A DNA stretch of 64,000 nucleotides from an uncultured Acidobacteriota bacterium (lineage in GTDB: Bacteria > Acidobacteriota > Thermoanaerobaculia > UBA5066), in NCBI GenBank assembly GCA_963779415.1, contig CAVZYA010000002.1, forward strand, positions 1,024,001 to 1,088,000, written 5' to 3'. The notes below the pieces were generated by a model. It was not told the DNA's origin, made no database searches, and saw only the letters and a list, made by a program, of their open reading frames with translations. Made by a program: the position numbers and the translations under genes. Shown one piece after another: positions 26,674 to 43,900 of the stretch. The stretch's first letter is position 1; each line of letters starts with the position of its first letter.

Positions 26674-26753
26674 ACGGCACGACCCTGATGGCCGAACAGG
26701 CGTCGTCCTTCTGCTGATCGCCTCGAGAACCGTCTCGAGTTCGAGATGCTGCT
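26674..26753 (+). repeat. Diverged direct repeat, copy 1 (5' end of kinase gene; partner at 45126..45204)
   Basis: acggcacga(c/t)cctgatggccgaa...tctcgagttcgag(a/g)tgctgct shared, roughly 80% identity by eye. Confidence 0.8.
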
Positions 26754-30036: not shown

Positions 30037-30168
30037 TCGTAGATTCCCTGCGGCGGGCCCCGTAATTCTCCGAGGTCACAACCGGCAGAAGCGCGGCTAG
30101 CCTCCGGCTCGTAGTTGGGTGCCGGCAGGAACCGCGACGAGCACGGTCGCGGGGAAGGAATCGCCCCA

Positions 30169-30612
30169 ATGCCCGAGAAGCCCCTGAGCTGCGTTCTCCT
30201 CGCGGACCGCCACCATGGCCTCACGGAAGGCGTCCGCGGGCTGCTCGAGACGGCGTTCGGAACGGTGGTCATGGTTGCCGACGAGGCGTCACTGCTGGAG
30301 GGGGCGGGCCGGCTGAGGCCCGACGTGGCGGTCGTGGATCTCTCGCTGGCAAGGGACAGCAGCCTGGGCTGGCTGCACGCGCTGAAGGACCGCTGTCCGG
30401 GTCTCAGGGTGATCGCCCTCAGCGTCCACGACGAAGCGAACATCCGCAGGGCGGCGCTCGAGGCGGGCGCCGATGCGTTCGTTCTGAAACGGGCGATCGT
30501 GACCGACCTCCTGCCGGCGGTCGACCGCCTCCGTGAGGAGGCCGAGGTGCCCTCGCCGGGGAGCGGAAGCGCGCCCGTTCCGGCAGGTGACGCGAGGAAG
30601 AACCCGCAATGA
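30169..30612 (+). CDS. Single-domain response regulator (atypical acidic pocket ADRH)
   Basis: VLLADRH, AVVDLSL, ALSVH, FVLKR. Confidence 0.85.
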   Translation: MPEKPLSCVLLADRHHGLTEGVRGLLETAFGTVVMVADEASLLEGAGRLRPDVAVVDLSLARDSSLGWLHALKDRCPGLRVIALSVHDEANIRRAALEAGADAFVLKRAIVTDLLPAVDRLREEAEVPSPGSGSAPVPAGDARKNPQ

Positions 30613-31374
30613 CGACGTCTTGCCGGAGCCTGCGTCGAGCCGTACTCGCGAGAGCGGCGGTCGCCTTGGCGATTTCTCTCATCGCATACCCCGCCGCCGC
30701 GGAGGACGACGCCTTCCGGAACACCGCCGAGATCTACCTGATGGCCCCGTCGATGTCGGGGACGGTCGGCTTCGGTCCGCTCGGTACGGAGATCGATGTC
30801 CCGTCCTCGAGGATCTTCGAGAACCTCAAGTTCGCGGTCCTCGCGGACTACCGGGGAGAGGCCCCGAAATGGGCCGTGGCGGCCGACGTCGTCTACATGA
30901 ACCTCGGGGGGAGCGGGACCGGCTCCCTGGACCGCGCCTCGGCCGACGTCGGCGTCGAGGAGTTCATCGTCGACCTCGCCGGGGCGTGGCGGTTCTCGAA
31001 GGCGTTCGAGCTTCTCGCGGGGGGGAGGTACACGCGGCTCCGGACGACCGTCACGTTGACGAGCCCCCTGAAAGTCCGCGACGCGAAGGTCGACGAGGAC
31101 TGGTTCGACCCGTTCGTCGGCGCCCAGGCGTTCCTGCCGCTCTCGAAGGCCCTCCTGCTCCAGCTCCGCGGTGATGTCGGCGGCTTCGGGGTCGGCTGCA
31201 AATTCACGTGGCAGGTGATGGCCCGCCTGAACTGGCAGGTCTCGCCGGTTCGTCCGCCTCGGCCTCGGCTACCGCTGGCTCGACCAGGACTTCGAGACGG
31301 GCTCGGGAGTCGACTACTTCCGATGGAAGGTCCTGACCTAGGGCCCGTTGATCGCGGCGGGCGTCACGTTCTAG
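30609..31374 (+). CDS. Putative outer-membrane beta-barrel protein (frameshift near 31250, in-frame TAG at 31339)
   Basis: Signal peptide, amphipathic strands, DWFDPFVG, LRGDVGGFGVG, GYRWL, terminal Phe (..GVTF*). Confidence 0.72.
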
Positions 31375-31499
31375 GAATTCGACGAGAAGGGGGGACCGCG
31401 AGGAGTGAAAGGAGATACGGAGTCATGACGAAGAAGACGAGCAAGAGCGGCGAACCGACCGCCTGTTCTCCCGGAGATCTCACGAGAAAGGAAATGACC

Positions 31500-32700
31500 A
31501 TGGCTGACAACGCGAAGCAGATCAAAGAGACCACGTTCGAAAACACGAAACTGAACCTCGTGAAGCTGGATTGGAAAGAGGTGTATTACACCAACTGTCC
31601 CCTCGTGTCCGCCAGCAACGTGGACCAGGAGCTGGGCTGGACGCGGGAGGAGTACAAGAAGATCGGCGTGAAGTACGCCTTCCTGCGCTCGACCCGCGAG
31701 AACGACTGGTATCCGCACTACATCCACAATCTCGACAACCTCATCCGCTTCGGCGGGCTCTTCCCGCCCGTCCAGGTTCACGCCGACATCCGCAGGACGA
31801 GGCTCCTGGGCGTGACGCACGTGCCGCGCGAAGGTGGCGTCATGATGGTGCGCGCCAAGGACGACATCTACCGGATGAGCGATCTGAAGGGGAAGAAGAT
31901 CGGGCTCTCGAAGAGCCTGAACCGGGTCAAGAACGACTGGTGGCGCATCCAGGAGCACCAGGGCATCGAGCTGATGCTCCGGTTGCACGGCATGACCATG
32001 AAGGACATCGAACTGGTGGAGTTCCCCTACGCGGATGACTGGTACAACGATCCGAAGATGCTGGATCCGATGGAGAATCCGTCCGAATTGTGGCTGAAGC
32101 GCGACCACAAGCGCGACCTCGCCTTCCGTCCGTTGGAAACGGCCCTGGAAAAGGGCGTCATCGATGCGCTCTATTGTCAAAGCAAAGTGTTGAGCGTTCT
32201 CGCCGAGGCAACCGGCAACTTCGTGTCCATTGAGGATTTGTCGAGGTATCCGGACTGGCGCCTGCAGGTGGCCAACATCCCGGCCGCGATCACGTGCAGC
32301 GACGTGATGGCCGAGAAGCACCCCGAGCTGGCCGTCACGTTCATGAAGGGCATGATCAAGGTGGGGCGCTGGGCCAACGAGCACAAGCACGCGGCGGCGG
32401 CGATCCTCGACAAGCAGACGTTTTACCTCGACGTCGAGGACACCTACCGGGGCATCAGAGACGTCGACATGGTGCCCAACCTGTCGCCGCAGAACCTGGC
32501 CTCCGTGGAGATCGGGAAGAACTTCATGCTGAAGCATGGCTACATCAAGCGCGACTTCGACGTGCAGAAGTGGGCGGCTCCGGAGTTTCTCGAGCAGGCG
32601 GCGCGGGAGCTCCTCGAAGCGCAGTGGAAGAAGACGACCACGGCGAAGCTCCCCGCGACGACTGAGCTGCAGGCGGCTTCCGCGGCGGGTCGGCTCGAGT
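31500..32700 (+). CDS. DszB-like (2'-hydroxybiphenyl-2-sulfinate desulfinase / SsuA-fold) protein; stop obscured by errors
   Basis: YYTNCP, PHYIHNLDNLIRFGG (H-x9-R-F-G-G), RTRLLG, DLKGKKIGLS match the DszB pattern; no signal peptide. Confidence 0.8.
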
Positions 32701-32718
32701 CGGAAGGGAGACAGATCC

Positions 32719-34416
32719 ATGAAAGTCATCATCGTGGGCGGAGTGGCGGGCGGAGCGTCGTGCGCGGCGCGGCTGCGCCGGCTGGACGAGAAGGCCGAGA
32801 TCGTGATGGTGGAACGCGGGCCGTACCTCTCATACGCCAACTGCGGGCTGCCGTACCACGTCTCGGGCGTGATCGCCGAAGGAGTCGAGCCTCCTCGTGG
32901 CCAACGAGCAGTACTTCAAGGCGAACCTCGGCGATCGACGCGCGGACGAACTGCGAGGCGGTCTCGATCGACCGGAAGAAGAAGACCGTCGGCCTGAAGA
33001 ACGTCAAGACCGGCGAGGTGACGACGGAGAAGTACGACAAGCTCGTCCTCTCGCCCGGGGCGCCTTCGGTCCGTCCGCCGCTTCCGGGGATCGACCTGCC
33101 CGGGATCTTCCAGGTGCGGACCGTGCCCGACGCGCGGGCGATCAAGGAGTGGATCGAGAAGGGGACGGTGTTCCTCGCCGGAATGTCCAACTACTCCGGG
33201 ATCCAGTTCGTCAAGCCGCCACGGCGCGCCGTCGTGATCGGCGGCGGGTTCATCGGCCTCGAGACGGCGGAGAACCTGATCCACGCGGGGTTCGAGGTGA
33301 CGCTCGTCGAGATGCTCGACCAGGTCCTCGCCCCGCTCGACCGCGAGTTCGCCCACCTCGTCGAGGAGCACCTGAAGAGGCACGGCATGACGGTCGCCCT
33401 CGGCGACGGCGTGGCCGGATTCACGCAGCTGGCGGGGGGCGCGATCGAGGTGAAGACGAAGTCCGGCAAGACGTACCCGGCCGACGTCGTGATCCTCGCC
33501 CTCGGCGTCCGGCCGGACACGACGCTCGCGAAGGCCGCCGGGCTCGAGATCGGCGAGCGCGGAGGGATCCGCGTCGACGACCAGATGCACACGAGCGACC
33601 CGGACATCTTCGCCGTCGGCGACGCCGTCGAGGTCAAGGACTGGGTGACGGGGCAGTGGAGCCTCGTGGCGCTCGCCGGGCCGGCGAACCGGCAGGGGCG
33701 GATCGCGGCCGACGTGATCGCCGGGCGCAAGTCCCGCTACCGCGGCACGCAGGGGACCTCGATCATCGGGCTCTTCGGCGGCGCCGCCGCCTGGACCGGC
33801 GTCAGCGAGAAGACGCTGAAGAAGAGCGGCGACACGGACTACGAGAAGATCTACATCTTCCCGAACTCGCACGCCGGCTACTACCCGGGCGCCAGGCTGA
33901 TCGGGCTGAAGTTCATCTTCCGGAAGTCCGACGGGCGGGTCCTCGGGGCGCAGGCGATCGGCGAGGACGCACCGGCGGTGGACAAGCGGATCAGCGCCCT
34001 CGCGATGGCCCTCCAGATGAAGGCGACGATCTACGACCTCGAGGAGGCCGAGCTCTGCTACGCGCCCCAGTTCGGCAGCGCGAAGGACGCGGTGAACTTC
34101 GCCGGGATGGTCGCGGCGGACGTCCTCCATGGGGACATGCCGCTCGCCCACTGGGACGAGACGAGAGGCGCGTTCCTCCTCGACGTGCGCCTGCCGGTCG
34201 AGCTCGTCGTCGAGAGCGTCCCCGGCGCCGTCAACATCCCGCTCCACCTGCTCCGCGCCCGCCTCGGCGAGGCTTCCGAAGGACCGGGAGATCCTCGTCA
34301 TCTGCCGCTCCGCCCAGCGCGCCTACTACGCGACGCGGGTCCTCCTGCAGAACGGATTCAAGGCCCGGAACATCTCGGGCGGCATGCTGTCGCGGGCCAT
34401 GCTTTCACCGCAGTAG
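32719..34416 (+). CDS. CoA-disulfide/persulfide reductase with C-terminal rhodanese domain (Cdr/Npsr type), frameshifted
   Basis: IIVGGVAGGASCAARLRR, SYANCGLPY redox Cys, IGGGFIGLE, FAVGD, ELCYAPQF, rhodanese ICRSAQRA. Confidence 0.92.
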
Positions 34417-34449
34417 CAAGACACTGAACAAGGAATAGGAGAACAAACG

Positions 34450-36870
34450 ATGACAACCGCAGCTGCTTCCGAGAAGAGCACCACCGGCCGCGTCAAGGCC
34501 GACAGCGCCCGGATCGACCGGCTGAAAGAACAGCTCCTGAGCACGCCTCAGGCACTGGACAACGAGCGGGTCCGGATCATGGCGGAGGTCTACGAGGGAA
34601 CCGCCGGATACCAGCAGATCATCCGCAGGGCCAAGTTCTTCTCCGAGCTGATCGAGAGGAAGAAGCTCTACATCGACGAGAACCTCATCGTCGGCAGCAT
34701 GGCGAGCAGCGTGAACGCCGTCTACACGTACCCGGAGTGGAACGTGGAGTGGATGAAGGCAGAGAAGACCGTCGAGAAATCGAAGACCCCGGAAGACCGC
34801 AAGGCGAACCAGTGGGCGCTCGAGTACTGGGACAAGTGGGCGCTGCGCCCGCGGGCCGACGAGATCTTCATCAAGAAGTACGGCTTCGATCCGGACCCGG
34901 TCTACAAGGCGGGCCTCATCGCCGAGTTCATGTCCTGGCCAGGTGGCGGAGGCAACCTCAACTATCCCCGGGTCTACCGGGAGGGCCTCGCCAGCATGAT
35001 CAAGGAGGTCGAGGAGCGGCAGAAGGCCCTCGACATGCGGCTGCCGAACGCGCCCAAGTTCTACTTCTACGAGGCCTGCCTGATCACGATGACGGCCGTC
35101 ATCCGGCTGGCCAACCGCTACGCCGAGCTGGCCCGGGAGATGGCGGCCAAGGAGAAGAACGCGGACCGCAAGGCCGAGCTCATTGGCATCGCCGAGACCT
35201 GCAAGTGGGTGCCTGAGCATCCTGCCCGTAATCTGAGAGAAGCGATCCAGGCTCATTTCTTCTGTCATATCTGCGCAGAGATCGAGCAGGTGGGTTGCGG
35301 CTACTCGGAGGCCTACCTGGGCCAGAACCTCGAGCCGTTCTACCAGCGTGACAAGGCCGCGGGGCTGATCGGTCCCGATGAGGCGACCTACCTGCTGCAG
35401 CTGCTCTTCGTCAAGCTGAACGAGATCGGGTACTACTACGGAGAGCAGGTGGCTCTGCAGAACTCCGCCGACCTTGGCCAGAGCATCACGGTCGGCGGCT
35501 ACACCGAAGACGGAGACGATGCCACCGCGGAGATGGACTACAACATTCTCGACGCCGCGAAGTACCTGAAGCTGCCCCAGCCGCCCCTCTCCTGCTGCTA
35601 CACGGAGAAGATGAGCGGCAAGTTCCTGGAGAAGGTCCTCGACGTCATCGACACCGGCGTCGGCATGCCGCAGTTCGTGAACGGCGACGTGATGATCAAG
35701 CGGGCCCTCAACCTCTTCGCAGGGAGCAAGAACGGTCTCACGCTCGAGAAGGCACGACGGACCTGTATCGGCGCGTGCGTGGGAAGCTACATCCCGTACG
35801 AGACCGGGCATCCGGTGGAGGGGCAGCCGAACCTCGGAAAGGTCCTCGAGCTGACGCTGAACAACGGCTTCGACCCCCGGACCAAGGTGCAGATCGGCCC
35901 CAAGACCGGGGATCCCGAGAAGTTCAAGGACTTCGAGGAGCTGTACGCGGCTTTCGAAAAGCAGCTCCAGTTCTGCGAGGACACGCTCCGCCGCGAGGCA
36001 TGGATCGCGAGCATCCTCTGCGCCGAATACCTTCCCGTCGCCTGGCGCTCCATCCTGACGAAGGGGTGCATCGAGAGCGGAACCGAGGTCTGGAACGGCG
36101 GCGCCAACTACTACACGGTTGCCCAGATCACCGTCGGTGGCGTGGACGCCGCCAACGGGCTCATGGCGGTGAAGAAGCTGGTGTACGACGACAAGAAGCT
36201 GACGATGGCCGAGCTGAAGAAGGCGCTGGCGGCGAACTTCGAGGGCGAGTACGAGAAGGTCCGGAAGCTCTGCTACGAGGCCCCCAAGCACGGAAACGAC
36301 ATCCCCGAGGTCAACAAGTTCGTTCGCCGTGTGTACAACTCCATCTTCCAGGCGTTCCAGAACGTGGACGGCGGCGGTAACTACATCAGCCCGGACATCA
36401 GATCGGCCCCCGACTCCTACACCAAGAGCATCCACAACCTGATGGGTCTGGTGACGGGCGCCCTGCCGACCGGCAAGAAGGCCGGCGTAGCCCTCTGCGA
36501 TGGCAGCCTGTCCGCCATGCCCGGCACCGACGTCAACGGGCCGACCGCGCTGGTCATGTCCGCGGCAAAGGGCGCGGACGCGGTCAAGTTCACCGCGACG
36601 CACATGAACATGAAGCTCCCTCCCAACCAGCTCAAGACCCGCAAGGGCCGAGAGACCCTGCTGAACCTCGTCAAGACCTATATGGACAACGACGGCTATC
36701 ACATCCAGTTCAACGTGCTGGACACCAACATCCTGAAGGACGCGCAGAAGCACCCGGAGAAGTACCGCGACCTGGTCGTGCGGGTGGCGGGGTTCAGCGC
36801 CTTCTTCACGAAGCTGCACCCGGGTGTGCAGAACGAGATCATCGCCCGCACCGAGCAGAGCTTCGGTTGA
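34450..36870 (+). CDS. Glycyl radical enzyme of unassigned specificity (806 aa)
   Basis: C-terminal HIQFNV...LVVRVAGFSAFF (Gly781), Cys loop TCIGACVGS (Cys443), VPEHPARN, ITVGG, PKHGND. Confidence 0.95.
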   Translation: MTTAAASEKSTTGRVKADSARIDRLKEQLLSTPQALDNERVRIMAEVYEGTAGYQQIIRRAKFFSELIERKKLYIDENLIVGSMASSVNAVYTYPEWNVEWMKAEKTVEKSKTPEDRKANQWALEYWDKWALRPRADEIFIKKYGFDPDPVYKAGLIAEFMSWPGGGGNLNYPRVYREGLASMIKEVEERQKALDMRLPNAPKFYFYEACLITMTAVIRLANRYAELAREMAAKEKNADRKAELIGIAETCKWVPEHPARNLREAIQAHFFCHICAEIEQVGCGYSEAYLGQNLEPFYQRDKAAGLIGPDEATYLLQLLFVKLNEIGYYYGEQVALQNSADLGQSITVGGYTEDGDDATAEMDYNILDAAKYLKLPQPPLSCCYTEKMSGKFLEKVLDVIDTGVGMPQFVNGDVMIKRALNLFAGSKNGLTLEKARRTCIGACVGSYIPYETGHPVEGQPNLGKVLELTLNNGFDPRTKVQIGPKTGDPEKFKDFEELYAAFEKQLQFCEDTLRREAWIASILCAEYLPVAWRSILTKGCIESGTEVWNGGANYYTVAQITVGGVDAANGLMAVKKLVYDDKKLTMAELKKALAANFEGEYEKVRKLCYEAPKHGNDIPEVNKFVRRVYNSIFQAFQNVDGGGNYISPDIRSAPDSYTKSIHNLMGLVTGALPTGKKAGVALCDGSLSAMPGTDVNGPTALVMSAAKGADAVKFTATHMNMKLPPNQLKTRKGRETLLNLVKTYMDNDGYHIQFNVLDTNILKDAQKHPEKYRDLVVRVAGFSAFFTKLHPGVQNEIIARTEQSFG

Positions 36871-36881
36871 CATTCAGCGGA

Positions 36882-36918
36882 GCCGGTACAGTGGGGCGGC
36901 CCGCCCCGCCGTACCGGC
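36882..36918 (+). terminator. GC-rich stem-loop directly after the GRE gene (terminator or mRNA-stabilising hairpin)
   Basis: gccggtacagtggggcgg-c-ccgccccgccgtaccggc followed by ccattctt; weak U tract. Confidence 0.6.
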
Positions 36919-37027
36919 CCATTCTTCACGAGCAGCCCGGCACGGTTGGACGAAGGACGACGACGGACAGCGACCGCACGAACACGAGAGGCAATTTGTG
37001 ATCAAAGAGATCGGCCATGGGAGTTTC

Positions 37028-38173
37028 ATGAGACGCATCGCAATCAACGTCGGCGCTGGCTACGTCCCGGGGCTGAATGCCGTGGTCAAGGGCGCGGCCC
37101 TGGCGGCGGGCAGGATGGGATGGGAGATCGTCGGCATCCGGGACGGATTCGACGGGCTGCTGCACCCGGAGCGCTACCCGGACGGCGGCCTGCTGACCCT
37201 CAGCCCCGAGCTGGTCGAGAACATCGATCCGGCCGGCGGGGGCTTCCTGGGCCAGTCGGGCCGGGTCGACCCGTTTCACGTCCGCCGGGTCAACGAAGAC
37301 GAGATGGTCGAGGAAGTCGACATGTCCGACGAGCTCCTTGCCGCGTTCCGGAAGGAGCAGCTCGATGCGCTGATCTCCGTCGTCGGGGGGCGCGGGCTGA
37401 GCATCCTCTACAAGCTCCACCGCAAGGGGCTCCATACGGTCTGCGTCCCCCGGTCGATCGAGAACGACATCGCCGCGACCGCGGTCTCTTTCGGCTTCAA
37501 CAGCGCGCTCAGCTTCACCATCGAGATGCTGGACCGGGCCCGTCAGGCGGCCCAGGCGGCCCGCAAGATCGGGGTGGTGGAGGTCCTGGGAGAGCAGTCC
37601 GGGTGGGTAGCGCTCCAGGCTGCCATCGCCGTCTGCGCCGATGCGGTCCTGATTCCCGAGATCCTCTGCGACCTCAAGGTGGTGGCGTCGCGGCTGAAGG
37701 ACAAGGTGTCGCTCCGGAGGCCGTACGGCCTGGTGGTGGTGGCCGAAGGGGCCAGGTTCCTCGAGACCTCGAAAGCCGAGGCGAAGCCTTCCTCCCTCAA
37801 GGCCTCTCTGTCGCCGCTGGCGACCGGGGATGCCAGCGAGCACGTCATCCACAGGTCGGGTCAGGCCGCCGAGAAGGTGGCGAACGGGCTGCAGCTTCTG
37901 CTCGCCGAGGAAACCTATCCGCTCGTCCTGGGGCCCTGGGTCAGGGGCGGCACTCCGACCGCGGTCGACCGCCAGCTGGGCCTCGGTTACGGGGCCGGAG
38001 CCGTGCGCGCCCTGAAGGCCGGCAAGAACGGGATGATGGTGGCGTTCGTTCCCCCGGACATGAAGTTCGTGCCGCTGACGGAAGCGATCAACAAGGTCAG
38101 GACCGTACCTGCGGACAGCGAGTTCATGCAGATCGCCCAGAGCCTCGGCATCTGCCTCGGGAAGGAGCTGTGA
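37028..38173 (+). CDS. PfkA-fold protein with substituted catalytic motifs
   Basis: Overall PfkA layout (PGLNAVV, GIRDGFDGL, VVVAEG, RGGTPT..DR) but GGRGL, PRSIEND and EVLGE replace GGDG, PKTIDND and EVMGR. Confidence 0.85.
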   Translation: MRRIAINVGAGYVPGLNAVVKGAALAAGRMGWEIVGIRDGFDGLLHPERYPDGGLLTLSPELVENIDPAGGGFLGQSGRVDPFHVRRVNEDEMVEEVDMSDELLAAFRKEQLDALISVVGGRGLSILYKLHRKGLHTVCVPRSIENDIAATAVSFGFNSALSFTIEMLDRARQAAQAARKIGVVEVLGEQSGWVALQAAIAVCADAVLIPEILCDLKVVASRLKDKVSLRRPYGLVVVAEGARFLETSKAEAKPSSLKASLSPLATGDASEHVIHRSGQAAEKVANGLQLLLAEETYPLVLGPWVRGGTPTAVDRQLGLGYGAGAVRALKAGKNGMMVAFVPPDMKFVPLTEAINKVRTVPADSEFMQIAQSLGICLGKEL

Positions 38174-39135
38174 TGAGCACGCCCGTGAACCCATCCGCTC
38201 CGACCGGCTTCGTTCTGAACATCCAGCGCTATTGCAGTCACGACGGCCCGGGTATCCGCACGAACGTATTCCTCAAGGGTTGCTCGCTCCGCTGCAAGTG
38301 GTGCGGCAACCCCGAGAGCATCGCCTTCAAGCCCGAACTCTCCTACGACCCCAGGAAGTGCACCGGCAGGAAGGAATGCGGCGTCTGCCTGAAGCCTCCC
38401 TTCCCGGAAGGCGCCTTCTATGTGCCGGAAAACGCTGCCGACGACAAGGTCAAGGTCAACTGGGACCTGGCGACGGGCTGCGACGAGGCGATGGTCGCGC
38501 TGTGCGAGCCGGGCGCTCTCGAGATGTTCGGCAAGCGAATGACGGTGGACGAGGTCCTGGACGAGGTAGAGAAGGACAGCTCCTTCTACCGGAACACCGG
38601 GGGTGGCATGACGCTGAGTGGCGGCGAGTGCCTGCTGCAGCCGGACTTCGCGGCCGCCCTGCTGAAGGGGGCCCACGACCGCGGCTTCAACACGGCGATC
38701 GAAACGGCGTGCAACGTTCCCTGGGCGTACGTGGAGAAGGTGCTGCCCCACGTCGATACCGTCCTCCACGACCACAAGATGACGATCCCGGAGCGCCACA
38801 AGAAGTGGGTCGGAGTGAGTAACGAGCGGATCCTCACGAACTTCAAGAGAGCCTACGAGACGTTTCCAAACGCGGACTTCATCGCCAGGACGCCGCTGAT
38901 TCCGGGCATAAACGCCGACGAGGAGCACATCCGGGCCGTCCTGGCGTTCATTCGCCCGCACAAGAACGTCATCGACTACGAGCTGCTGCCGTACCACCGC
39001 TTCGGCCTCGGCAAGTACGAGCTGCTGGGCGAGGTGTACGAGCTGGACGACTACAAGACGCCGTCGGACGACTTGGTCAAGCACCTCCAGGCCATCATCG
39101 ACGAGGCCTTCGGCCGCAGCGGAGGCACCAAGTGA
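38173..39135 (+). CDS. Glycyl-radical enzyme activating enzyme (radical SAM)
   Basis: HDGPGIRT, CSLRCKWC (CX3CX2C), NPES, SGGE, IETA, LLPYH; TGATG-coupled to upstream gene. Confidence 0.96.
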   Translation: MSTPVNPSAPTGFVLNIQRYCSHDGPGIRTNVFLKGCSLRCKWCGNPESIAFKPELSYDPRKCTGRKECGVCLKPPFPEGAFYVPENAADDKVKVNWDLATGCDEAMVALCEPGALEMFGKRMTVDEVLDEVEKDSSFYRNTGGGMTLSGGECLLQPDFAAALLKGAHDRGFNTAIETACNVPWAYVEKVLPHVDTVLHDHKMTIPERHKKWVGVSNERILTNFKRAYETFPNADFIARTPLIPGINADEEHIRAVLAFIRPHKNVIDYELLPYHRFGLGKYELLGEVYELDDYKTPSDDLVKHLQAIIDEAFGRSGGTK

Positions 39136-40280
39136 CACCTAACGAAGACATCTACGAAAGGCTGGCGGCGGCGCTGGAGGCGCTCCCGCACGGCTTCGCC
39201 CGCACGCCTTCGGGCGTGGAGATCAAGTTGATGAAGAAGGCCTTCACGGAGGAGGAGGTCCGGTTGGCCGGCCAACTCACCCGCACCCCCGAAACGGCTG
39301 CCGAGATCGCCAAGCGGTTGGGCCGGGATGTGGCCGAGGTCACCGCGCTGCTCGAGAGGCTGATTCCGCTGGGCCTGGTCTCGCTTCCCGGAAACACGGC
39401 GGGGGGGGGCGTTCTGAAAGAGGAAATGAAAGGCGAGAGGAGATACCGGCTGCGCCCGTTCATGGTGGGCTGGTACGAGGCCGGCATGCGCCGCCTTGAC
39501 AAGGAGTTCGCCGAGCTGTTCGAGCAGTTCATCACCGAAGGCGGGGGCGAGCGTGTCTTCGCGCCGCGACCGGGACTGCTGGGCGTGGTGCCGGTGCGAG
39601 GTTCGCTCAAGCCCGAGTATGTCAAGCGCGAGCCGCATATAGACATTGACGCCCACTTCCAGCGGCACGAGCGCTTTCTCGTCATCCCCTGCGTCTGCAA
39701 ACGGGAGCGGGAAGTCCTGGGGGACTCGTCCTGCGGGAAGCCCATGAAGCGTTGTGGATTCGTGGGACTGCCGCCCCAGACCCCGCTGGGCGAGACCGTG
39801 CTGGGCCGGGAGGAGGCGTCCAAGCTCCTCACCGAGCTCGGCGAGCAGGGTCACGTCAACCTCGCGTTCTACGGCTTCACCATGTTCGCGGATGCGCCGC
39901 AGTTCATGGGCACGTGCAACTGCTGCTCCTGCTGCTGCGGGATACTCCACGGCCCGAAGCTGGCCGGCCTGGAGTCCCACCAAGGGCCGCAGCCGTCGAA
40001 CTTCCGCGCTGTCATCGACCCGGAGGCGTGCATTGCATGCGGCGTCTGCCAGGAGCGTTGTCCGGTGGACGCGATCTCCGACATCACGGAGCCGGGCCCG
40101 ATCGAGGGGAAGTCACGCGTAGAGCGGGCAAAGTGCATCGGATGCGGAGTGTGCGTGATCGGCTGCGCATCCGACGCGATTGTGATGGAGCCGGTCTCCC
40201 CGGAGGAGTGGTTCCACGTCCCCTCCAGCATGGCGGAGTGGGAAGAGATGCGGCTGAAGAACTTGGCGTCACAGAAATGA
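39132..40280 (+). CDS. Multi-Fe-S protein (N-terminal wHTH-like region, Cys-rich middle, C-terminal 2x[4Fe-4S])
   Basis: PCVCKR, CNCCSCCC, CIACGVCQERCP, CIGCGVCVIGC. Confidence 0.88.
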   Translation: MTPNEDIYERLAAALEALPHGFARTPSGVEIKLMKKAFTEEEVRLAGQLTRTPETAAEIAKRLGRDVAEVTALLERLIPLGLVSLPGNTAGGGVLKEEMKGERRYRLRPFMVGWYEAGMRRLDKEFAELFEQFITEGGGERVFAPRPGLLGVVPVRGSLKPEYVKREPHIDIDAHFQRHERFLVIPCVCKREREVLGDSSCGKPMKRCGFVGLPPQTPLGETVLGREEASKLLTELGEQGHVNLAFYGFTMFADAPQFMGTCNCCSCCCGILHGPKLAGLESHQGPQPSNFRAVIDPEACIACGVCQERCPVDAISDITEPGPIEGKSRVERAKCIGCGVCVIGCASDAIVMEPVSPEEWFHVPSSMAEWEEMRLKNLASQK

Positions 40281-41086
40281 GCGGGTGCAGCGCCCTCCTC
40301 TCTGGTCTTGCCATCCTCCTTGCCGCGGCCTTGCCCGCTCCGGTGAGCGCCCAGACTCAAGCGGAACCCGGCGGAGTGACGGCCCAGACGGAGGCCGACG
40401 CGAACAACCCCCTCGCCAAAGTCCAGGCATTCAACCTCCACGACTACTACGTCCCGACGCTCTCGGAGACTCCGGACCAGACCGCCAACACGTTCTGGCT
40501 CCGGTACGCACAGCCGGTTGGAGGGTTCCTGATCCGGGCGTCGCTGCCGCTGTCCCGGGTACCGGCGGGCGACGGCACCACGACGTCCGGGCTCGGCGAC
40601 TTCAATGCCTTCGCCGCCTACCTGTTCGACACAAAGCCGGGAGTGAGCTTCGGCCTGGGGCCGCAGGTGACGGCCCCCACCGCGACGGCTCACGAGACCG
40701 GGACAGGGAAGTGGCAGGGCGGCCTCGCCGCGGTCTACTTCGACGCGACGTCGCAGAGGGTCCAGTGGGGCGGGCTCGTCACCTGGCAGGCGGACTTCGC
40801 CGGCCCTTCCAACCGGCCCGGTACGAACGTCCTCGCCGTCCAGCCCTTCTACTTCATCCAACTCGGAAAGGGACTGTACGTGAGGAGCACGGCGGTGATG
40901 GCCTTCAATCTGGAGAATGGCTCGTACAACGTGCCCGTCGGCCTCGGCCTCGGCATGGTGATCCCGGCGGGCCGGACGGTCCTCAACGCGTTCGTGGAGC
41001 CGCAGTTCACGGTTCTTTCGCATGGCCCCGGCCAGCCGGAAGTGCAGATCTTCGTCGGCCTTAACACGCAGTTTCTGAAGAAGTAG
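40277..41086 (+). CDS. Putative outer-membrane beta-barrel/transporter protein
   Basis: Signal peptide, ANNPLA, SGLGDF, GLGPQVTAPTA, TGKWQGG, NVPVGLG. Confidence 0.75.
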   Translation: MSGCSALLSGLAILLAAALPAPVSAQTQAEPGGVTAQTEADANNPLAKVQAFNLHDYYVPTLSETPDQTANTFWLRYAQPVGGFLIRASLPLSRVPAGDGTTTSGLGDFNAFAAYLFDTKPGVSFGLGPQVTAPTATAHETGTGKWQGGLAAVYFDATSQRVQWGGLVTWQADFAGPSNRPGTNVLAVQPFYFIQLGKGLYVRSTAVMAFNLENGSYNVPVGLGLGMVIPAGRTVLNAFVEPQFTVLSHGPGQPEVQIFVGLNTQFLKK

Positions 41087-41106
41087 CAGGGATGAGGAGA
41101 TAGTCG

Positions 41107-41991
41107 ATGTCGACCACCCTGACGCTCCTGTTCAAGATCACACTGGCGATCTTCATGGCGGGCAGCCTGCTGGAGATGGGCCTCCGGCTCAACCTCCAGG
41201 AGGCCTTCCGGGGGCTTCGCAACGTGCGCTTCGTGGCCTACACGCTGGTCTGGAGCTTCGTCCTCGTCCCCGCCCTCGCCTACGGGATCACACTCGTCAT
41301 CCCGCTGCAGGCCCCCTATGCCATCGGCCTCGTCCTTCTGGGCATGGCGCCCTGCGCGCCCTTTGTCCCCGGCCTCGTGGACAAGGCCAAGGGGGACCTT
41401 GGCTTCACGGCGGCCTTCATGCTCCTCGCCTCGGTCGGCACCGTCGTGTGCATGCCCTTTACGGTGCCTCTTCTCACCACGGGCCTGACCGCCAGCGCCT
41501 GGGCGATCGCCAAGCCCCTCCTGATCGTCGTCCTCCTGCCCATGGCAATCGGCGTCATCATCCGTCGTCAGGCGGATGCCTTCGCCTCCAAACTGCTCCC
41601 CTTCGCGAAGAAGCTCGCAGGGATCTTCGGCCTCCTCTGGTCCGTCCTGTGCCTCGTCATCTACGGGAAGGGCCTGCTCGGCGTGGCGGGCGAGTTCGCC
41701 CTCGCTTCGGAACTTCTCTTCTTCTGCGTGATCTTCCTGGGCACCTACTGGCTGGGCTTCGGCCTGCCCTATGAGCAGAAGATCGTGCTGAGCGTCGGGG
41801 TCACGACCCGGAACCTCGGCGCCTGTCTCACGCCGCTCCTCTCGGTGCCGGACATGGACCAGCGGGCCACGCTCATGATCGTGCTGGCGCTCCCCATCAT
41901 GGTCATCGTCTCGTTGCTGGGGGCGAAGTGGCTGGGCCCGGCGGCCGAACCGGGGTCCAAGACACCTGCGCCCGACCAGGCAAGTGCTTGA
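41107..41991 (+). CDS. Bile acid:sodium symporter (BASS/SBF) family transporter
   Basis: MGLRL, FVLVPALAY, GLVLLGMAPCAP, KAKGD, TRNLG; about 9 TMs. Confidence 0.88.
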   Translation: MSTTLTLLFKITLAIFMAGSLLEMGLRLNLQEAFRGLRNVRFVAYTLVWSFVLVPALAYGITLVIPLQAPYAIGLVLLGMAPCAPFVPGLVDKAKGDLGFTAAFMLLASVGTVVCMPFTVPLLTTGLTASAWAIAKPLLIVVLLPMAIGVIIRRQADAFASKLLPFAKKLAGIFGLLWSVLCLVIYGKGLLGVAGEFALASELLFFCVIFLGTYWLGFGLPYEQKIVLSVGVTTRNLGACLTPLLSVPDMDQRATLMIVLALPIMVIVSLLGAKWLGPAAEPGSKTPAPDQASA

Positions 41992-42082
41992 TGAGCCCCC
42001 AGCGCTCCTCCGCCGGCACCTCCCGATCCTGGAATGGGGGCCCAATACACCGGCAGGTTCTTGTTGATGGAGGGTTCACCGC

Positions 42083-43900
42083 ATGAGTGAAGGTGCTCCC
42101 GGCGTGCTTGCCATGATCAGCTGGCCCCGCCCGTTCGTGGGACTCCGGGGCATCAGGCTGGCCGACGTCCCCCGCGAGGTCTCGGCGGGCGTCACGCTGG
42201 CCGCCCTCATGATCCCGCTCAACATCGGTTACGCGCAGGTGGCCGGCCTGCCGCCCGTGGCCGGCCTCTACGCGGCCATCATTCCCCTGGCCGTCTTCGC
42301 CCTGCTGGCGAGTTCGCGCCACCTGGTGACGAGCCCCGACGCCTCCATGGCCACCCTGGTCGGTGCCACTCTGGTCGCCTTCGCTGCGCCCGGAGACCCG
42401 TTGCGCCTGCAGTACGCCCTCGCCCTGGCGATGGTCTGCGCGCTGCTGTTCTTCCTCTTCTGGATTTTCCGGTTGGCGTTCCTCGCCAACTTCCTGTCGC
42501 GCGCCGTGATGGCGGGGTTCATCACCGGGCTCGGGGTCGAGGTGTTCACGAACCAGGTGCGAAAGATCCTCGCCGCCCCCCACGTGGCGGGCGCCGCGAC
42601 AGGCGTGCTGGCGGCGGCCGAACGGATCAAGGACGTCATGGCGAGCTCGGTGAACACCGAGGGCTACTTCGTGGAGGTCGTCGCCCTGATCCACTCGATC
42701 CCCCGGGCCAACCTTTACTCGGTGGCGATCGGCGTCGCCGCCTTTCTGACCGTCCGCCTTCTCAAGCGCTTCGCGCCCAGGATCCCGGGGGCGCTGGTGG
42801 CGCTGGGGGTGCTCACGCTCGCCGTGGCTTACTTCAACCTCGCCCAAAAGGGGGTCGGCGTCCTCGGCGCGATTCCCTCGGGTCTTCCGACCCTGACCCT
42901 GCCGGCCATCCCTGCCGCCGACTACCTGAGGCTGTTTCCCGGCGCCATGGCGATTGTGGCGATCCTGCTGTGTGAGGGCCTGCTCGTGGTCCGCAGCTAC
43001 AGCAGCAAGTACGGATACAAGGCGGACGGCGATCAGATGTTGTTCGCCTACGGCGCGGCAAACCTCGCGGCCGGGTTTACCGGCTCGCTACTGACCGGCA
43101 ACAGCCCCTCCCGCTCGGCAGCGATGGACTCCTCGGGAGCGAAGAGCCAGCTGCCGAGCCTGGTGGCGGCCGGGACGATCGCCGTGGTCATGCTGTTCTT
43201 CACCGACATGCTCGCGTACCTGCCGAATGCGGCCCTGGCGGGGATCGTCGCCAATGCGGTGCTCTCCCTGATCGAGGTCCACGAGCTCGGCGAGCTGTGG
43301 CGGATGCGGCGTTCGGAGTTCTGGATCGCCGCCACCTGCCTCCTGAGCGTGCTGGCTCTGGGGCCGCTGCGCGCCGTCCTCATCGCCTTTCTCCTGTCCA
43401 CGATCGACGTCATCCGGCGGGCGTCCCGCCCGGAGACGGCGGCGCTGCTCGAAGCCGCGGACGGCAGCCATTTCGCCGCCACGGACCTGGGCCAGGGCGT
43501 CAGTCCGTCGGGCCTGGTCGTCTATCGGTTCGGCGCCCCGCTCTACTTCGCCAACGCGACCCTGTTTCTCGACGAGGTCGAGCAACTGATCGCCCGGGCG
43601 CCGACCCCGGTCCGCTGGTTCGTGCTGGACGCGCAGGCGATGGTCGACGTCGACACCACCGGCGCGGAGGTCCTTCGGCAGGCAATCACCTTGCTGACCG
43701 GGCGCGGCATCGTCTTCGCCGTCAGCCGCGCCGATCGGTCCTTCCGCTCCTGGCTGGAGCGATACGGGCTCATGAAGCTGATTGACCAGAAGCGCTTCTA
43801 CCCGACCAACCGCCACGCCGCGGCGGCGTTTCGCGAGGACTCGGGGCGCGAGGCGGAGCCGCCCGGAACGGCCTCGCCGCCTCTCCCTCAGGGTACGTGA
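42083..43900 (+). CDS. SulP family anion transporter with STAS domain
   Basis: AGVTLAALMIP..GYAQVAGLPPVAGLYA, GAKSQL, GAPLYFANA, VDTTG. Confidence 0.95.
   Translation: MSEGAPGVLAMISWPRPFVGLRGIRLADVPREVSAGVTLAALMIPLNIGYAQVAGLPPVAGLYAAIIPLAVFALLASSRHLVTSPDASMATLVGATLVAFAAPGDPLRLQYALALAMVCALLFFLFWIFRLAFLANFLSRAVMAGFITGLGVEVFTNQVRKILAAPHVAGAATGVLAAAERIKDVMASSVNTEGYFVEVVALIHSIPRANLYSVAIGVAAFLTVRLLKRFAPRIPGALVALGVLTLAVAYFNLAQKGVGVLGAIPSGLPTLTLPAIPAADYLRLFPGAMAIVAILLCEGLLVVRSYSSKYGYKADGDQMLFAYGAANLAAGFTGSLLTGNSPSRSAAMDSSGAKSQLPSLVAAGTIAVVMLFFTDMLAYLPNAALAGIVANAVLSLIEVHELGELWRMRRSEFWIAATCLLSVLALGPLRAVLIAFLLSTIDVIRRASRPETAALLEAADGSHFAATDLGQGVSPSGLVVYRFGAPLYFANATLFLDEVEQLIARAPTPVRWFVLDAQAMVDVDTTGAEVLRQAITLLTGRGIVFAVSRADRSFRSWLERYGLMKLIDQKRFYPTNRHAAAAFREDSGREAEPPGTASPPLPQGT

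What the first reader, a model, noticed from the sequence alone, without database searches (positions are those of the whole stretch)
30169..43900. Candidate undescribed anaerobic organosulfur pathway: glycyl radical enzyme clustered with a DszB-like desulfinase, persulfide reductase-rhodanese, degenerate PfkA and anion transporters
Seen: a closely spaced plus-strand run of REC protein, beta-barrel, DszB-like protein, Cdr-rhodanese, GRE, PfkA-fold protein, activase, polyferredoxin, beta-barrel, BASS and SulP, with several overlapping stop/start codons. Established: DszB releases sulfite from an aryl-sulfinate in the aerobic 4S pathway; Cdr-rhodanese (Npsr) enzymes reduce persulfides; some GREs (IslA/IseG, HpsG) cleave C-S bonds. 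I know of no characterised pathway combining a GRE with DszB. Inference: an imported sulfur-bearing organic anion is attacked by radical chemistry to give a sulfinate. The sulfinate is then desulfinated, and the released sulfur is handled by the reductase and SulP.
Basis: partly seen in the sequence, partly recalled or inferred. Interest (0 to 1): 0.92.

Follow-up and report, generated by a model that had tools for sequence, protein, structure and literature searches.

The report
Undescribed glycyl-radical enzyme sulfur island
This is a real, widely shared but unstudied gene island in which an oxygen-sensitive radical enzyme with an unusual active site, a disabled sugar-kinase look-alike and sulfur-handling enzymes travel together, probably letting soil and sediment bacteria process an organic sulfur compound without oxygen.

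Summary
The Cdr-rhodanese gene is split by three 1-nt insertions. The first beta-barrel has a frameshift and a premature stop. The DszB-like gene has lost its stop codon.

The cluster is not a chance mosaic. In 44 related loci with complete 10-kb flanks, GRE, PFK-like protein and activase co-occur 44 of 44 times. Cdr-rhodanese occurs in 34 and the DszB-like gene in 25.

The GRE lies outside every characterised clade. Its best match is HypD, at half the NCBIfam cut-off. Its Cys loop lacks the eliminase glutamate.

The PFK-like protein has lost the kinase motifs. A model places it on the activase (ipSAE 0.64, best control 0.09).

The DszB-like protein keeps DszB's Cys/His/Arg triad and fold. However, 46 of 50 genomes that carry it without a nearby GRE have no orthologous GRE at all. 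Its steady partners are rhodanese, Cdr and SulP.

The island is therefore two separable modules.

Eight literature searches found no description of this island. This scan had already noted the same family in 7 other genomes.

The parts
26746..28293 (+). GAF-PAS-HisKA_3 sensor histidine kinase, probable regulator of the island. A NarL/LuxR-type response regulator follows at about 28287-28940.
   Evidence: Pfam. The translation shows REC plus LuxR HTH. Kinases of this type occur in 17 of 80 GRE loci, and sigma54-GAF activators in 22 of 80.
30169..30612 (+). Stand-alone receiver (REC) domain protein.
   Evidence: PF00072, 49.4 bits. Relatives occur in 18 of 80 GRE loci.
30609..31374 (+). Putative outer-membrane beta-barrel 1. 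It is broken here by a 1-nt insertion at 31249 and a premature stop at 31339-31341.
   Evidence: No family match. The comparison with L061, which reads ...KVLTQGPLIAAGVSF, is.
31425..32700 (+). Cytoplasmic DszB-like protein of SBP fold, a putative desulfinase. Its natural stop is lost through insertions at 32682 and 32696.
   Evidence: DszB is the only PDB sequence hit (E 1.2e-11) and the top fold hit (E 5.3e-18). The Cys/His/Arg triad is invariant in 40 of 40 sequences. The ends of orthologues are shown.
32719..34416 (+). CoA-disulfide/persulfide-reductase with a C-terminal rhodanese domain (Cdr-RHD). Here it lies in four frame pieces, with insertions at 32875, 32932 and 34271.
   Evidence: The intact L061 orthologue matches PDB 3ICR (525 bits), Npsr 3NTA (496 bits) and CoA-persulfide reductase 8A56 (455 bits).
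34450..36870 (+). Glycyl radical enzyme of a new Glu-less clade, 806 aa and intact.
   Evidence: PFL-like 492 bits plus Gly_radical 96 bits. It falls below all NCBIfam cut-offs. The Cys loop is G-A-C443-V-G445-S and the glycyl motif R-V-A-G781-F-S.
37028..38173 (+). PFK-fold protein without kinase motifs, a predicted partner of the activase.
   Evidence: PF00365, 201 bits. It falls below the NCBIfam PFK cut-offs.
38173..39135 (+). GRE-activating radical SAM enzyme.
   Evidence: TIGR02494 scores 313.9 against a cut-off of 174.35. The CX3CX2C motif at C37, C41 and C44 is invariant.
39132..40280 (+). wHTH domain, Cys-rich region and 2x[4Fe-4S] ferredoxin-domain protein; a probable electron carrier.
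   Evidence: Pfam Fer4 families. Invariant cysteines are listed. In the fold search only the ferredoxin and wHTH parts match. It occurs in 28 of 80 GRE loci.
40277..41086 (+). Putative outer-membrane beta-barrel 2.
   Evidence: No family match. Relatives occur in 6 of 80 GRE loci.
41107..41991 (+). BASS-family (SBF) transporter.
   Evidence: PF01758, 78.2 bits. It is far below the bass, ACR3 and PanS cut-offs. BASS genes occur in 38 of 80 GRE loci.
42083..43900 (+). SulP-family anion transporter.
   Evidence: TIGR00815 scores 314.5 against a cut-off of 380.45. It occurs in 24 of 80 GRE loci and 30 of 80 DszB-centred loci.

Best explanation
The locus is a horizontally spread 'sulfur island' built from two separable modules.

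Module 1 is GRE, PFK-fold protein and activase, with or without the wHTH-polyferredoxin. It is a three-component glycyl-radical system. The activase installs the glycyl radical on Gly781. The PFK-fold protein has lost its ATP/Mg and fructose-6-phosphate residues and acts as a bound accessory subunit of the activase, not as a kinase. The Fe-S protein supplies electrons. The GRE has neither the Cys-x-Glu base nor the beta1 His/Arg of the eliminases, and carries an invariant W-P-G-G-G-G-N loop in their place. It most likely cleaves a C-S (or similar C-heteroatom) bond of an imported small organic anion, by radical beta-scission that needs no general base.

Module 2 is the DszB-like protein, rhodanese(s), Cdr-rhodanese and SulP/BASS. 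It handles oxidised and sulfane sulfur. The DszB-like enzyme releases sulfite from a sulfinate-type substrate. Rhodanese domains carry sulfane sulfur. The NAD(P)H-dependent Cdr-RHD reduces the persulfide to sulfide. The transporters import the substrate or export the sulfur oxyanion.

Module 2 works on its own in most genomes. Module 1 is an optional anaerobic add-on that feeds it or shares its products.

What is shown: gene content, conservation, motif states and co-occurrence. The activase-PFK contact is a model. Substrate, bond cleaved and flow between the modules are inferred.
For: Conservation of module 1 and its neighbours:
- GRE relatives of 67-97% identity were found in 113 stretches, of which the best 80 loci were kept. 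They come from MAGs labelled Acidobacteriota, Planctomycetota, Bacteroidota, Verrucomicrobiota, Nitrospirota, Gemmatimonadota, Pseudomonadota and Actinomycetota.
- In the 80 loci the counts are PFK-like 75, activase 71, Cdr 48, DszB-like 39, BASS 38, Fe-S protein 28 and SulP 24.
- In the 44 loci with both flanks complete they are PFK 44, activase 44, Cdr 34, DszB-like 25, and any of Cdr, DszB-like or rhodanese 37.

GRE active site:
- Cys443 is present in 50 of 50 orthologues. Position 445 is Gly in 44 and Pro in 6, never Glu.
- HypD Arg156 and His160 align to Pro and Gly within a W163-PGGGGN loop, and that loop is nearly invariant among 50 orthologues (W163, P164, G166-G168 and N169 in 50 of 50; position 165 is Gly in 42 and Ala in 8).

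PFK-like protein:
- In 57 sequences GGD has become GAG[YF], GGDGS has become GG[QR]G, TIDND has become SIEND and GHxQRGG has become GPWxRGG.
- New residues C139, R142, W193 and W304 are invariant in 47 of 47.

Complex model of activase with PFK-like protein:
- ipSAE median 0.64, best of 3 controls 0.09. In the tool's calibration, 58 of 80 solved complexes and 2 of 110 mismatched pairs reached the mark.
- The runs share at least 72% of contacts, and the partner's pLDDT is at least 83.
- The interface uses the former GGDGS loop (residues 122-129) and the activase's cluster loop (residues 37-40).

Further points for module 1:
- Extra PFK-like copies are each followed by an extra Fe-S protein copy in L007, L016 (twice), L025, L028, L068, L071 and L074.

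Module 2:
- DszB-like: C27, H60 and R70 of DszB align and are invariant in 40 of 40. DszB is the top fold hit, ahead of SsuA.
- Cdr-RHD matches Npsr and CoA-persulfide reductase structures.
- Of 39 GRE genomes with no DszB-like gene within 10 kb, 22 hold one elsewhere. That makes about 61 of 78 GRE genomes.
Against: - No substrate-specific enzyme, such as an aldehyde dehydrogenase or a CoA ligase, is consistently present to reveal the carbon skeleton.
- IslA's sulfonate-binding beta1 residues are not conserved (read with passages of PMC8473560). A sulfonate would therefore have to bind differently.
- 4 of 44 complete-flank GRE loci show no sulfur or transporter gene within 10 kb, though a DszB-like gene lies elsewhere in the genome for three of them (L001, L016, L047).
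- 17 of 39 GRE genomes without a nearby DszB-like gene gave no match at all. These are MAGs, so absence is not shown.
- dsrA passes its cut-off in only 8 of 50 other GRE genomes. Sulfite respiration cannot be the general purpose.
- In this window the Cdr and beta-barrel 1 genes are interrupted.
- The activase-PFK contact is a model, not a measurement.
Confidence: 0.5

Rival explanations
1. The GRE converts an imported organosulfur anion into a sulfinate. The DszB-like enzyme hydrolyses that sulfinate to sulfite. Cdr-rhodanese and SulP dispose of the sulfur.
For: - The DszB triad and fold are conserved.
- The DszB-like gene lies within 10 kb of the GRE in 39 of 80 loci. It is present somewhere in about 61 of 78 GRE genomes.
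- Beta-scission of a sulfonyl radical from a sulfone would give a sulfinate without a general base (established radical chemistry, recalled). That fits the Glu-less loop.
Against: - The DszB-like gene does not need the GRE. Only 15 of 80 DszB-centred loci hold it.
- 46 of 50 further genomes showed no orthologous GRE.
- Its commonest neighbours are a roughly 190-aa rhodanese (44 of 80), Cdr (37 of 80) and SulP (30 of 80).
- Cdr is a more frequent GRE neighbour than the DszB-like gene, at 34 against 25 of 44.
Confidence: 0.15
2. The GRE acts on a substrate without sulfur. The sulfur genes form an independent module for reactive-sulfur detoxification or sulfur assimilation. That module merely shares a mobile island and anaerobic regulation with the GRE.
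For: - The modules are separable.
- The GRE lacks IslA's sulfonate-binding residues.
- Cdr-RHD relatives are known as persulfide-detoxifying enzymes (molecule names).
- 7 of 44 complete-flank GRE loci have no Cdr, DszB-like or rhodanese gene within 10 kb.
Against: - 37 of 44 complete-flank GRE loci, from many phyla, carry a Cdr, DszB-like or rhodanese gene.
- The DszB-like gene is present in about 78% of GRE genomes. It was found in only 509 stretches of a collection of 185,579 species genomes.
- That association survives many independent transfers.
Confidence: 0.2
3. The GRE is a reductive enzyme that works like class III ribonucleotide reductase. A second cysteine near Cys443 forms a disulfide or persulfide in each turnover, for example in C-S hydrogenolysis. 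The flavoprotein Cdr-RHD re-reduces it with NAD(P)H.
For: - Cys439 is present in 43 of 50 orthologues. Three of the seven without it carry Cys446.
- Cdr is the most frequent accessory gene after PFK-like and activase (34 of 44).
- SAM synthetase lies in 11 of 80 loci, and extra Fe-S proteins occur. This would suit a system that consumes reducing power.
Against: - 4 of 50 orthologues have neither extra cysteine.
- 10 of 44 complete-flank loci lack Cdr nearby.
- Cdr-RHD also accompanies the DszB-like gene in GRE-free genomes.
- No precedent exists in the PFL2 class (recalled).
Confidence: 0.1
4. The PFK-fold protein is a true kinase. It phosphorylates the substrate or product, for example to create a phosphate leaving group.
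For: - The full-length PFK fold is present (201 bits).
- Arg72, Glu222 and Arg252 equivalents, Asn128 and Asp129 are kept.
Against: - Residues for Mg-ATP binding and catalysis are replaced throughout 57 sequences. These are Asp of GGD, Asp103, Asp127 (now Glu), Arg171, Arg243 and His249.
- The former GGDGS loop lies in the modelled interface with the activase.
- The protein is below all NCBIfam PFK cut-offs.
Confidence: 0.05
5. In this particular genome the upstream half of the island (beta-barrel 1, the end of the DszB-like gene, and Cdr) is really decaying. The lesions are mutations, not assembly errors.
For: - Seven uncompensated insertions and one nonsense substitution lie within 3.1 kb.
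- GRE to SulP, and the 8.5 kb of rpoB and rpoC, are intact.
- Short contigs of relatives in four public runs lack the extra letters at 32875/6, 32929/33 and 34271.
Against: - Cdr dN/dS against L061 is 0.19, the same as for an intact pair at 0.18. No stop lies inside any frame piece.
- All indels are insertions in the stretch most similar to a co-occurring relative (the DszB-like protein is 99% identical to that of L061). Such a pattern could arise from cross-mapped reads during polishing (inference).
- The three Cdr insertions sum to +3.
Confidence: 0.4

Closest known systems
trans-4-hydroxy-L-proline dehydratase HypD (PDB 6VXC; NCBIfam NF043068) and the other PFL2-class GRE 1,2-eliminases (glycerol dehydratase 1R8W, CutC)
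   Same: Same fold and length, the same glycyl motif and catalytic Cys, and an activase of the same subfamily. HypD is the best PDB match at 425 bits.
   Different: - The score is 495.5 bits against a cut-off of 1100.
- The Cys-x-Glu glutamate is Gly or Pro.
- HypD Arg156 and His160 are replaced by an invariant PGGGGN loop.
- A PFK-fold partner is obligatory.
C-S cleaving GREs: isethionate sulfite-lyase IslA (PDB 7KQ3) and DHPS sulfo-lyase HpsG (NF048011)
   Same: These are GREs that release sulfite from an organic anion. The activase here scores best against HpsH (344.1 bits). The sulfur-related context is similar, and the host genome has dsrAB.
   Different: - HpsG scores 421.7 bits against a cut-off of 1000, and IslA 291.8 bits.
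- The CXE motif, essential in IslA (E470Q is inactive; passages of PMC8473560), is absent.
- The beta1 Arg189 and Gln193 positions are not conserved.
- dsrA is present in only 8 of 50 other GRE genomes.
DszB, 2'-hydroxybiphenyl-2-sulfinate desulfinase of the 4S pathway (PDB 2DE2/2DE3)
   Same: - It is the only PDB sequence hit and the top fold hit.
- Cys27, His60 and Arg70 are conserved.
- It is cytoplasmic, with no signal peptide in the N-termini listed.
   Different: - Identity is about 22%.
- No dszA or dszC monooxygenase genes appeared among the conserved neighbours in either ORF clustering (and 48/49).
- Its partners are rhodanese, Cdr-RHD and SulP instead.
- A second invariant Cys (C267 of alignment A5) is present.
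- Some orthologues carry an N-terminal ...SG[DE]PTACSPGDL... tail.
CoADR-RHD / Npsr / CoA-persulfide reductase (PDB 3ICR, 3NTA, 8A56)
   Same: Same two-domain architecture. The redox Cys lies in SYANCGLPY and the rhodanese Cys in ICRSAQR.
   Different: It is below the NCBIfam CoA-disulfide reductase cut-off (420.6 against 578.8 for the intact L061 copy). In this window it is interrupted by three insertions.
Multisubunit GREs with small accessory subunits (HpdBC, benzylsuccinate synthase)
   Same: An extra, co-conserved, non-catalytic protein is encoded between the GRE and the activase.
   Different: The extra protein here is a 381-aa PFK-fold protein that is modelled on the activase. In those systems it is a small Fe-S subunit on the GRE (recalled).

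Membership tests
Glycyl radical enzyme superfamily | PFL-like barrel plus a C-terminal glycyl radical domain with R-V-x-G, and a catalytic Cys on the Cys loop. | tested here: met
   PF02901 scores 492.1 bits and PF01228 96.3 bits. R778, V779, A780 and G781 are present in 50 of 50, and C443 in 50 of 50.
GRE 1,2-eliminases (HypD, GDH, PDH, CutC, IslA, HpsG) | Cys-x-Glu motif on the Cys loop. | tested here: not met
   C443-V-G445 occurs in 44 of 50 and C-V-P in 6 of 50. The CXE motif is stated as conserved in eliminases in passages of PMC8473560.
Any NCBIfam GRE equivalog (HypD, IAD, HpsG, HpfG, CutC, HPAD, PflD, PflB) | Score over the curated cut-off. | tested here: not met
   The best score is 495.5 against 1100. 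Even the PFL2-3 subfamily scores 472 against 678.2. The 10 nearest 50%-cluster representatives also fail all cut-offs.
Isethionate sulfite-lyase IslA | Sulfonate-binding Arg189 and Gln193 (beta1) and Arg678 (beta8). | tested here: inconclusive
   The beta1 positions, equated with HypD Arg156 and His160 in PMC8473560, align to Pro and Gly. That part is not met. Arg678 could not be mapped, because no IslA alignment was obtainable.
GRE-activating enzymes (TIGR02494) | CX3CX2C radical SAM motif and a score over the cut-off. | tested here: met
   The score is 313.9 against 174.35. C37, C41 and C44 are invariant in 47 of 47.
DszB desulfinase | Type II SBP fold with Cys27, His60 and Arg70. | tested here: met
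   Alignment. Invariant in 40 of 40. Foldseek top hit 2DE2, E 5.3e-18, TM 0.64/0.72.
DszB desulfinase | Hydrolytic release of sulfite from an aryl sulfinate. | not testable with these tools
   An enzyme assay is needed.
PfkA phosphofructokinase | GGD(x)PGMN, GGDGS and TIDND motifs, and the Arg162, Arg171, Arg243 and His249 substrate residues. | tested here: not met
   Alignment to PDB 1ZXX. Column counts in 57 sequences. Below the cut-offs of TIGR02483 (241.2 against 430.55) and NF002872 (213 against 253).
CoADR-RHD / Npsr persulfide reductase | Pyr_redox_2 and dimerisation domains with the redox Cys, plus a rhodanese domain with the active Cys, in one intact polypeptide. | tested here: inconclusive
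   Domains and both cysteines are present. The window's gene needs three frame changes. Intact orthologues occur in 48 of 80 loci.

The most novel reading that the evidence does not exclude
GRE, PFK-fold protein and activase form a new kind of three-component glycyl-radical system, in which a former kinase has become an obligate subunit of the activase. The Glu-less GRE carries out base-independent radical C-S scission, or a reductive desulfurisation that uses its cysteine pair. Together with the DszB-like desulfinase, rhodaneses and NAD(P)H persulfide reductase, it would form the anaerobic counterpart of the oxygen-dependent ssu/4S sulfur-scavenging systems of soil bacteria.
Probability: 0.25. 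Interest if true: 0.9.

Novelty: new variant of a known kind. Interest (0 to 1): 0.75.

Why it matters
Most sulfur in soils and sediments is organic (recalled). The known bacterial routes that free it (Ssu, Tau, Msu, Sfn, Dsz) need O2 (recalled). A GRE-based system present in MAGs of many phyla from soil, wetland and sediment would fill the anoxic half of that picture.

It would also add a new reaction type to the GRE family, with no catalytic Glu, His or Arg and an invariant Gly-rich loop. A new type of activase partner, a kinase fold turned into a protein-binding module, would be added as well.

The DszB-like/rhodanese/Cdr module is itself undescribed. It is about four times commoner than the GRE in the collection scanned (509 against 113 relatives). 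It would be the first DszB relative with a role outside aerobic fuel desulfurisation.

Tried and rejected
- **Sigma-54 promoter scan of the window** (TGGCAC-N5-TTGC, up to 2 mismatches). It gave 21 matches against 37.7 expected, and none was useful.
- **ESM Atlas for the PFK-like protein.** It returned only PFK clusters and no new lead.
- **Fold search of the Fe-S protein model** (pLDDT 79). No match reached E <= 0.001. Only ferredoxin and wHTH pieces matched.
- **Search for the source reads.** No run holds the stretch; the best share of words was 0.18.
- **Laying four runs.** This gave only short contigs of relatives at 88-99% identity. RNA libraries X1 and X13 do hold such contigs over the DszB-like, Cdr and GRE genes. 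The tool warns that this does not show transcription, so I draw no habitat or expression claim from it.
- **ORF cluster 8.** I first read it as 'sigma54 activator in 38 loci'. It is a merger of two GAF-containing regulators: sigma54 activators in 22 loci and kinases like the window's in 17 loci plus the window.
- **First dN/dS run for Cdr.** It used wrong frame offsets and was redone.
- **A tree that includes named, characterised GREs.** This was not built, because no tool gave me their sequences. The tree of 76 rows holds only unnamed representatives.
- **ACR3-type arsenite carrier as a reading of BASS.** It scores 32.5 bits against a cut-off of 282.8 and is not supported.
- **Dissimilatory sulfite respiration as the general purpose.** dsrA passes its cut-off in 8 of 50 other GRE genomes.

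Full report
**1. What is in the window**

The window has about 67% G+C, so spurious long ORFs abound. I read the three + frames and scanned them against Pfam and NCBIfam.
- REC, 30169-30612
- a family-less putative outer-membrane barrel, 30609-31374
- an SsuA/NMT1-fold protein, 31425 to about 32700
- a CoA-disulfide-reductase-like flavoprotein with a rhodanese tail, 32719-34416
- a GRE, 34450-36870
- a PFK-fold protein, 37028-38173
- a GRE activase, 38173-39135
- a 382-aa wHTH/Cys-rich/2x[4Fe-4S] protein, 39132-40280
- a second family-less barrel, 40277-41086
- BASS, 41107-41991
- SulP, 42083-43900

Four junctions overlap stop and start. Upstream lie a GAF-PAS-HisKA_3 kinase (26746-28293) and a NarL-type regulator.

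**2.

Frame 3 is open from 30609 to 34427 only because several genes are out of register. I aligned the window to L061, which has 90% DNA identity and an intact gene set. The window has uncompensated insertions at:
- 31249, in barrel 1
- 32682 and 32696, which destroy the stop of the DszB-like gene
- 32717, which is intergenic
- 32875, 32932 and 34271, in Cdr

Barrel 1 also has Gln changed to stop ten codons before its end.

rpoB and rpoC of the same 4.36-Mb, 3-contig genome are uninterrupted. Read piecewise, all 564 Cdr codons are present. dN/dS against L061 is 0.19, against 0.18 for the intact pair L061/L035.

No public run holds this DNA. Contigs of relatives in four runs lack the extra letters at 32875/6, 32929/33 and 34271. 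That repeats what L061 shows and does not decide between error and mutation. I rate real decay at about 0.4.

**3. Is the cluster more than chance?**

A scan of one genome per species found 113 stretches that encode a GRE relative. The best 80 are 67-97% identical and come from MAGs labelled as at least eight phyla.

I ran tblastn of the window's proteins against these 80 loci. The counts were PFK-like 75, activase 71, Cdr 48, DszB-like 39, BASS 38, Fe-S protein 28, SulP 24, REC 18, barrel 1 10 and barrel 2 6.

I then restricted the count to the 44 loci with both 10-kb flanks complete. PFK-like was present in 44, activase in 44, Cdr in 34, DszB-like in 25, BASS in 22 and the Fe-S protein in 20. 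Any of Cdr, DszB-like or rhodanese was present in 37. Four loci had no sulfur or transporter gene.

ORF clustering added further recurrent neighbours:
- a stand-alone rhodanese, 23 loci
- sigma54-GAF activators, 22 loci
- kinases like the window's, 17 loci
- LuxR-type regulators
- SAM synthetase, 11 loci

**4. The GRE**

It falls below every NCBIfam cut-off: HypD 495.5 against 1100, the PFL2-3 subfamily 472 against 678.2, HpsG 421.7 against 1000, and CutC 382.2 against 1050. The best solved relatives are HypD 6VXC (425 bits) and glycerol dehydratase 1R8W (394 bits). IslA scores 292 bits.

In the HypD and GDH alignments the catalytic Cys and the glycyl motif align. The Glu of Cys-x-Glu is Gly, and HypD Arg156 and His160 face Pro and Gly.

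Among 50 full-length orthologues:
- C443 is invariant.
- Position 445 is Gly in 44 and Pro in 6.
- C439 is present in 43. Three of the other seven have C446.
- The loop W163-P-G-G-G-G-N169 is invariant except position 165, which is Gly in 42 and Ala in 8.

Passages of PMC8473560 state that CXE is conserved in GRE eliminases. They also state that IslA E470Q, R189E, Q193A and R678E are inactive.

I searched a library of 1.84 billion 50%-cluster representatives. The nearest full-length rows are 52%, 47% and at most 42% identical. Their Cys loops read GCVS, GCVS, GCVS and SCVP. In a FastTree of 76 rows, the window groups with the first three at SH-like support of 98-99. None of the ten nearest rows reaches an NCBIfam equivalog cut-off.

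The GRE thus sits in an uncharacterised, Glu-less branch.

**5. The PFK-fold protein**

It scores 201 bits on PF00365 but is below the NCBIfam PFK cut-offs. I compared 57 sequences against a solved PfkA, 1ZXX:
- GGDxPGMN reads G-A-G-[Y/F]-V-P-G-x-N.
- GGDGS reads G-G-[Q/R]-G.
- TIDND reads S-I-E-N-D.
- MGR reads L-G-[E/A].
- GHxQRGG reads G-P-W-x-R-G-G.

New residues are invariant in 47 primary copies: C139, P141, R142, W193, W304 and R306. It is therefore conserved but is not a phosphofructokinase.

Extra copies in eight loci are each followed by an extra copy of the Fe-S protein, and in L037 the order is GRE, Fe-S protein, PFK-like protein, activase. Each PFK-like gene therefore sits next to a ferredoxin-domain protein.

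A complex prediction of the activase (alignment A3) with the PFK-like protein (alignment A2) gave the following:
- ipSAE was 0.57, 0.64 and 0.66. The best of three controls was 0.09.
- In the tool's calibration, 58 of 80 solved complexes and 2 of 110 mismatched pairs reached the mark. The tool notes these counts hold only roughly with my own alignments.
- The runs share at least 72% of contacts, and the partner's pLDDT is at least 83.
- The interface joins PFK-like residues 81-96, 122-129 (the former GGDGS loop) and 354-359 to activase residues 37-40 (the CX3CX2C loop), 80-101, 181-183 and 214-219.

The model supports binding but does not show it. I know of no solved complex of a PFK with a radical SAM enzyme (recalled).

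**6. The DszB-like protein and its own company**

DszB is the only PDB sequence match, at E 1.2e-11. DszB C27, H60 and R70 align to the protein's YTNC, YPHY and IRFGG. These three residues are invariant in 40 of 40 sequences that are 77-99% identical. A model (pLDDT 79.5) has DszB as its best fold match, at E 5.3e-18, ahead of SsuA at 1.7e-13. The listed N-termini show no signal peptide.

A scan with this protein found 509 relatives, of which the best 80 were kept. Around those 80 loci the counts are Cdr 37, a rhodanese-tail hit 38, SulP 30, BASS 17 and GRE only 15. The commonest neighbour is a roughly 190-aa rhodanese directly beside it, in 44 of 80 loci. Other neighbours are a nitroreductase-ferredoxin fusion (14), MarC (13), an enoyl-CoA hydratase (12), DUF202 (12) and a sulfatase (10).

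I searched 50 genomes that hold the gene with no GRE within 10 kb; 8 further such genomes were not searched. Only 4 have an orthologous GRE of at least 69% identity elsewhere.

Conversely, of 39 GRE genomes with no DszB-like gene within 10 kb, 22 hold one elsewhere. Several of these lie just beyond the flank on the same contig.

The dependence is therefore one-sided. GRE genomes usually have the DszB-like module, and most DszB-like genomes have no GRE.

**7. The other parts**

- *Cdr-RHD.* The intact L061 copy matches CoADR-RHD 3ICR (525 bits), Npsr 3NTA (496 bits) and CoA-persulfide reductase 8A56 (455 bits). Both active cysteines are present.
- *Fe-S protein.* It has invariant cysteines in C-x-C, KRCG and T-C-x-C-C-x-C-C stretches, plus two ferredoxin motifs. 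Its model matches solved structures only in the ferredoxin and wHTH parts.
- *BASS.* It is far from the ACR3, PanS and bass cut-offs.
- *dsrAB.* The host genome carries dsrAB. dsrA passes its cut-off in only 8 of 50 other GRE genomes. Sulfite respiration may be used here but is not the general role.

**8. Reading**

The evidence fits two modules that are often, but not always, fused into one island.

Module 1 is a GRE system with a new kind of activase partner and an active site that lacks the acid/base residues of the eliminases. That fits radical beta-scission of a good radical leaving group, such as a sulfite, sulfonyl or thiyl radical. This step is inferred from established radical chemistry.

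Module 2 combines a probable desulfinase with sulfane-sulfur carriers, a persulfide reductase and anion transporters.

I put 0.5 on the general reading, in which the GRE acts on an organosulfur anion and is functionally tied to module 2.

**9. Literature**

Eight full-text searches found no paper describing this cluster. They paired 'glycyl radical (enzyme)' with desulfinase, DszB, sulfinate, phosphofructokinase, rhodanese, and Acidobacteriota plus sulfonate. One paired desulfinase with rhodanese. One covered a panel of small sulfonates.

I read only search listings, apart from passages of PMC10591310 (not relevant) and PMC8473560. Subscription papers and supplements were not visible.

**10. 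Earlier notes of this scan**

A sequence look-up showed the same GRE family noted in 7 other windows of 7 genomes. Each was read as an undescribed GRE with a pseudo-PFK partner, and some had sulfur genes. I re-derived the core claims here. New in this report are:
- the one-sided GRE/DszB-like dependence
- the rhodanese/DszB-like pairing
- the lesions in this window

Noticed in passing
window 28978-29826 (-) and 29627-30169 (-): An AbiEii-type nucleotidyltransferase toxin gene (PF08843) sits with an unassigned upstream ORF between the two-component genes and the REC gene. This suggests an inserted toxin-antitoxin pair inside the island's regulatory region.
   Followed up: no
G000:C1:710337-712548 and G000:C1:1568146-1570089: The host genome carries dsrAB; dsrA scores 572 bits, over its cut-off. 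It also carries a second, PFL-type GRE of 794 aa, scoring 725 bits on PF02901.
   Followed up: partly
window 20579-22789 (-) and 23546-25879 (-): Two ORFs join domains that are usually separate: DUF3300 with DUF2950, and an 87-residue AI-2E transporter fragment with DUF2254. These may be further frameshift fusions in this assembly.
   Followed up: no
L078:14739-15917 and 10 other GRE loci: A SAM synthetase gene lies in 11 of 80 GRE loci, and in L078 it sits directly after the activase. This hints at high SAM demand.
   Followed up: no
window 31425-31496; L022, L024, L035, L068, L076, L078: A subset of DszB-like proteins carries a conserved N-terminal tail...SG[DE]PTACSPGDL..., with a cysteine. 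L061, the closest relative, lacks it.
   Followed up: no
G027:C6:94653-97004: One genome holds a 45%-identical paralogue of the GRE (686 bits) in addition to a fragmented orthologue. This sister clade was not examined.
   Followed up: no
L007, L016, L025, L028, L068, L071, L074: Second and third copies of the PFK-like gene occur as pairs with extra copies of the wHTH-polyferredoxin gene, away from any GRE or activase gene.
   Followed up: partly
window 44406-44957 (+): A glycine-zipper outer-membrane lipoprotein-like ORF with a long Gln/Ala-rich stretch lies just downstream of SulP.
   Followed up: no
L145:11197-12075 and 13 other DszB-centred loci: A ferredoxin-nitroreductase fusion protein recurs beside the DszB-like gene, often with an enoyl-CoA hydratase and an AraC regulator in Gammaproteobacteria-labelled MAGs.
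   Followed up: no
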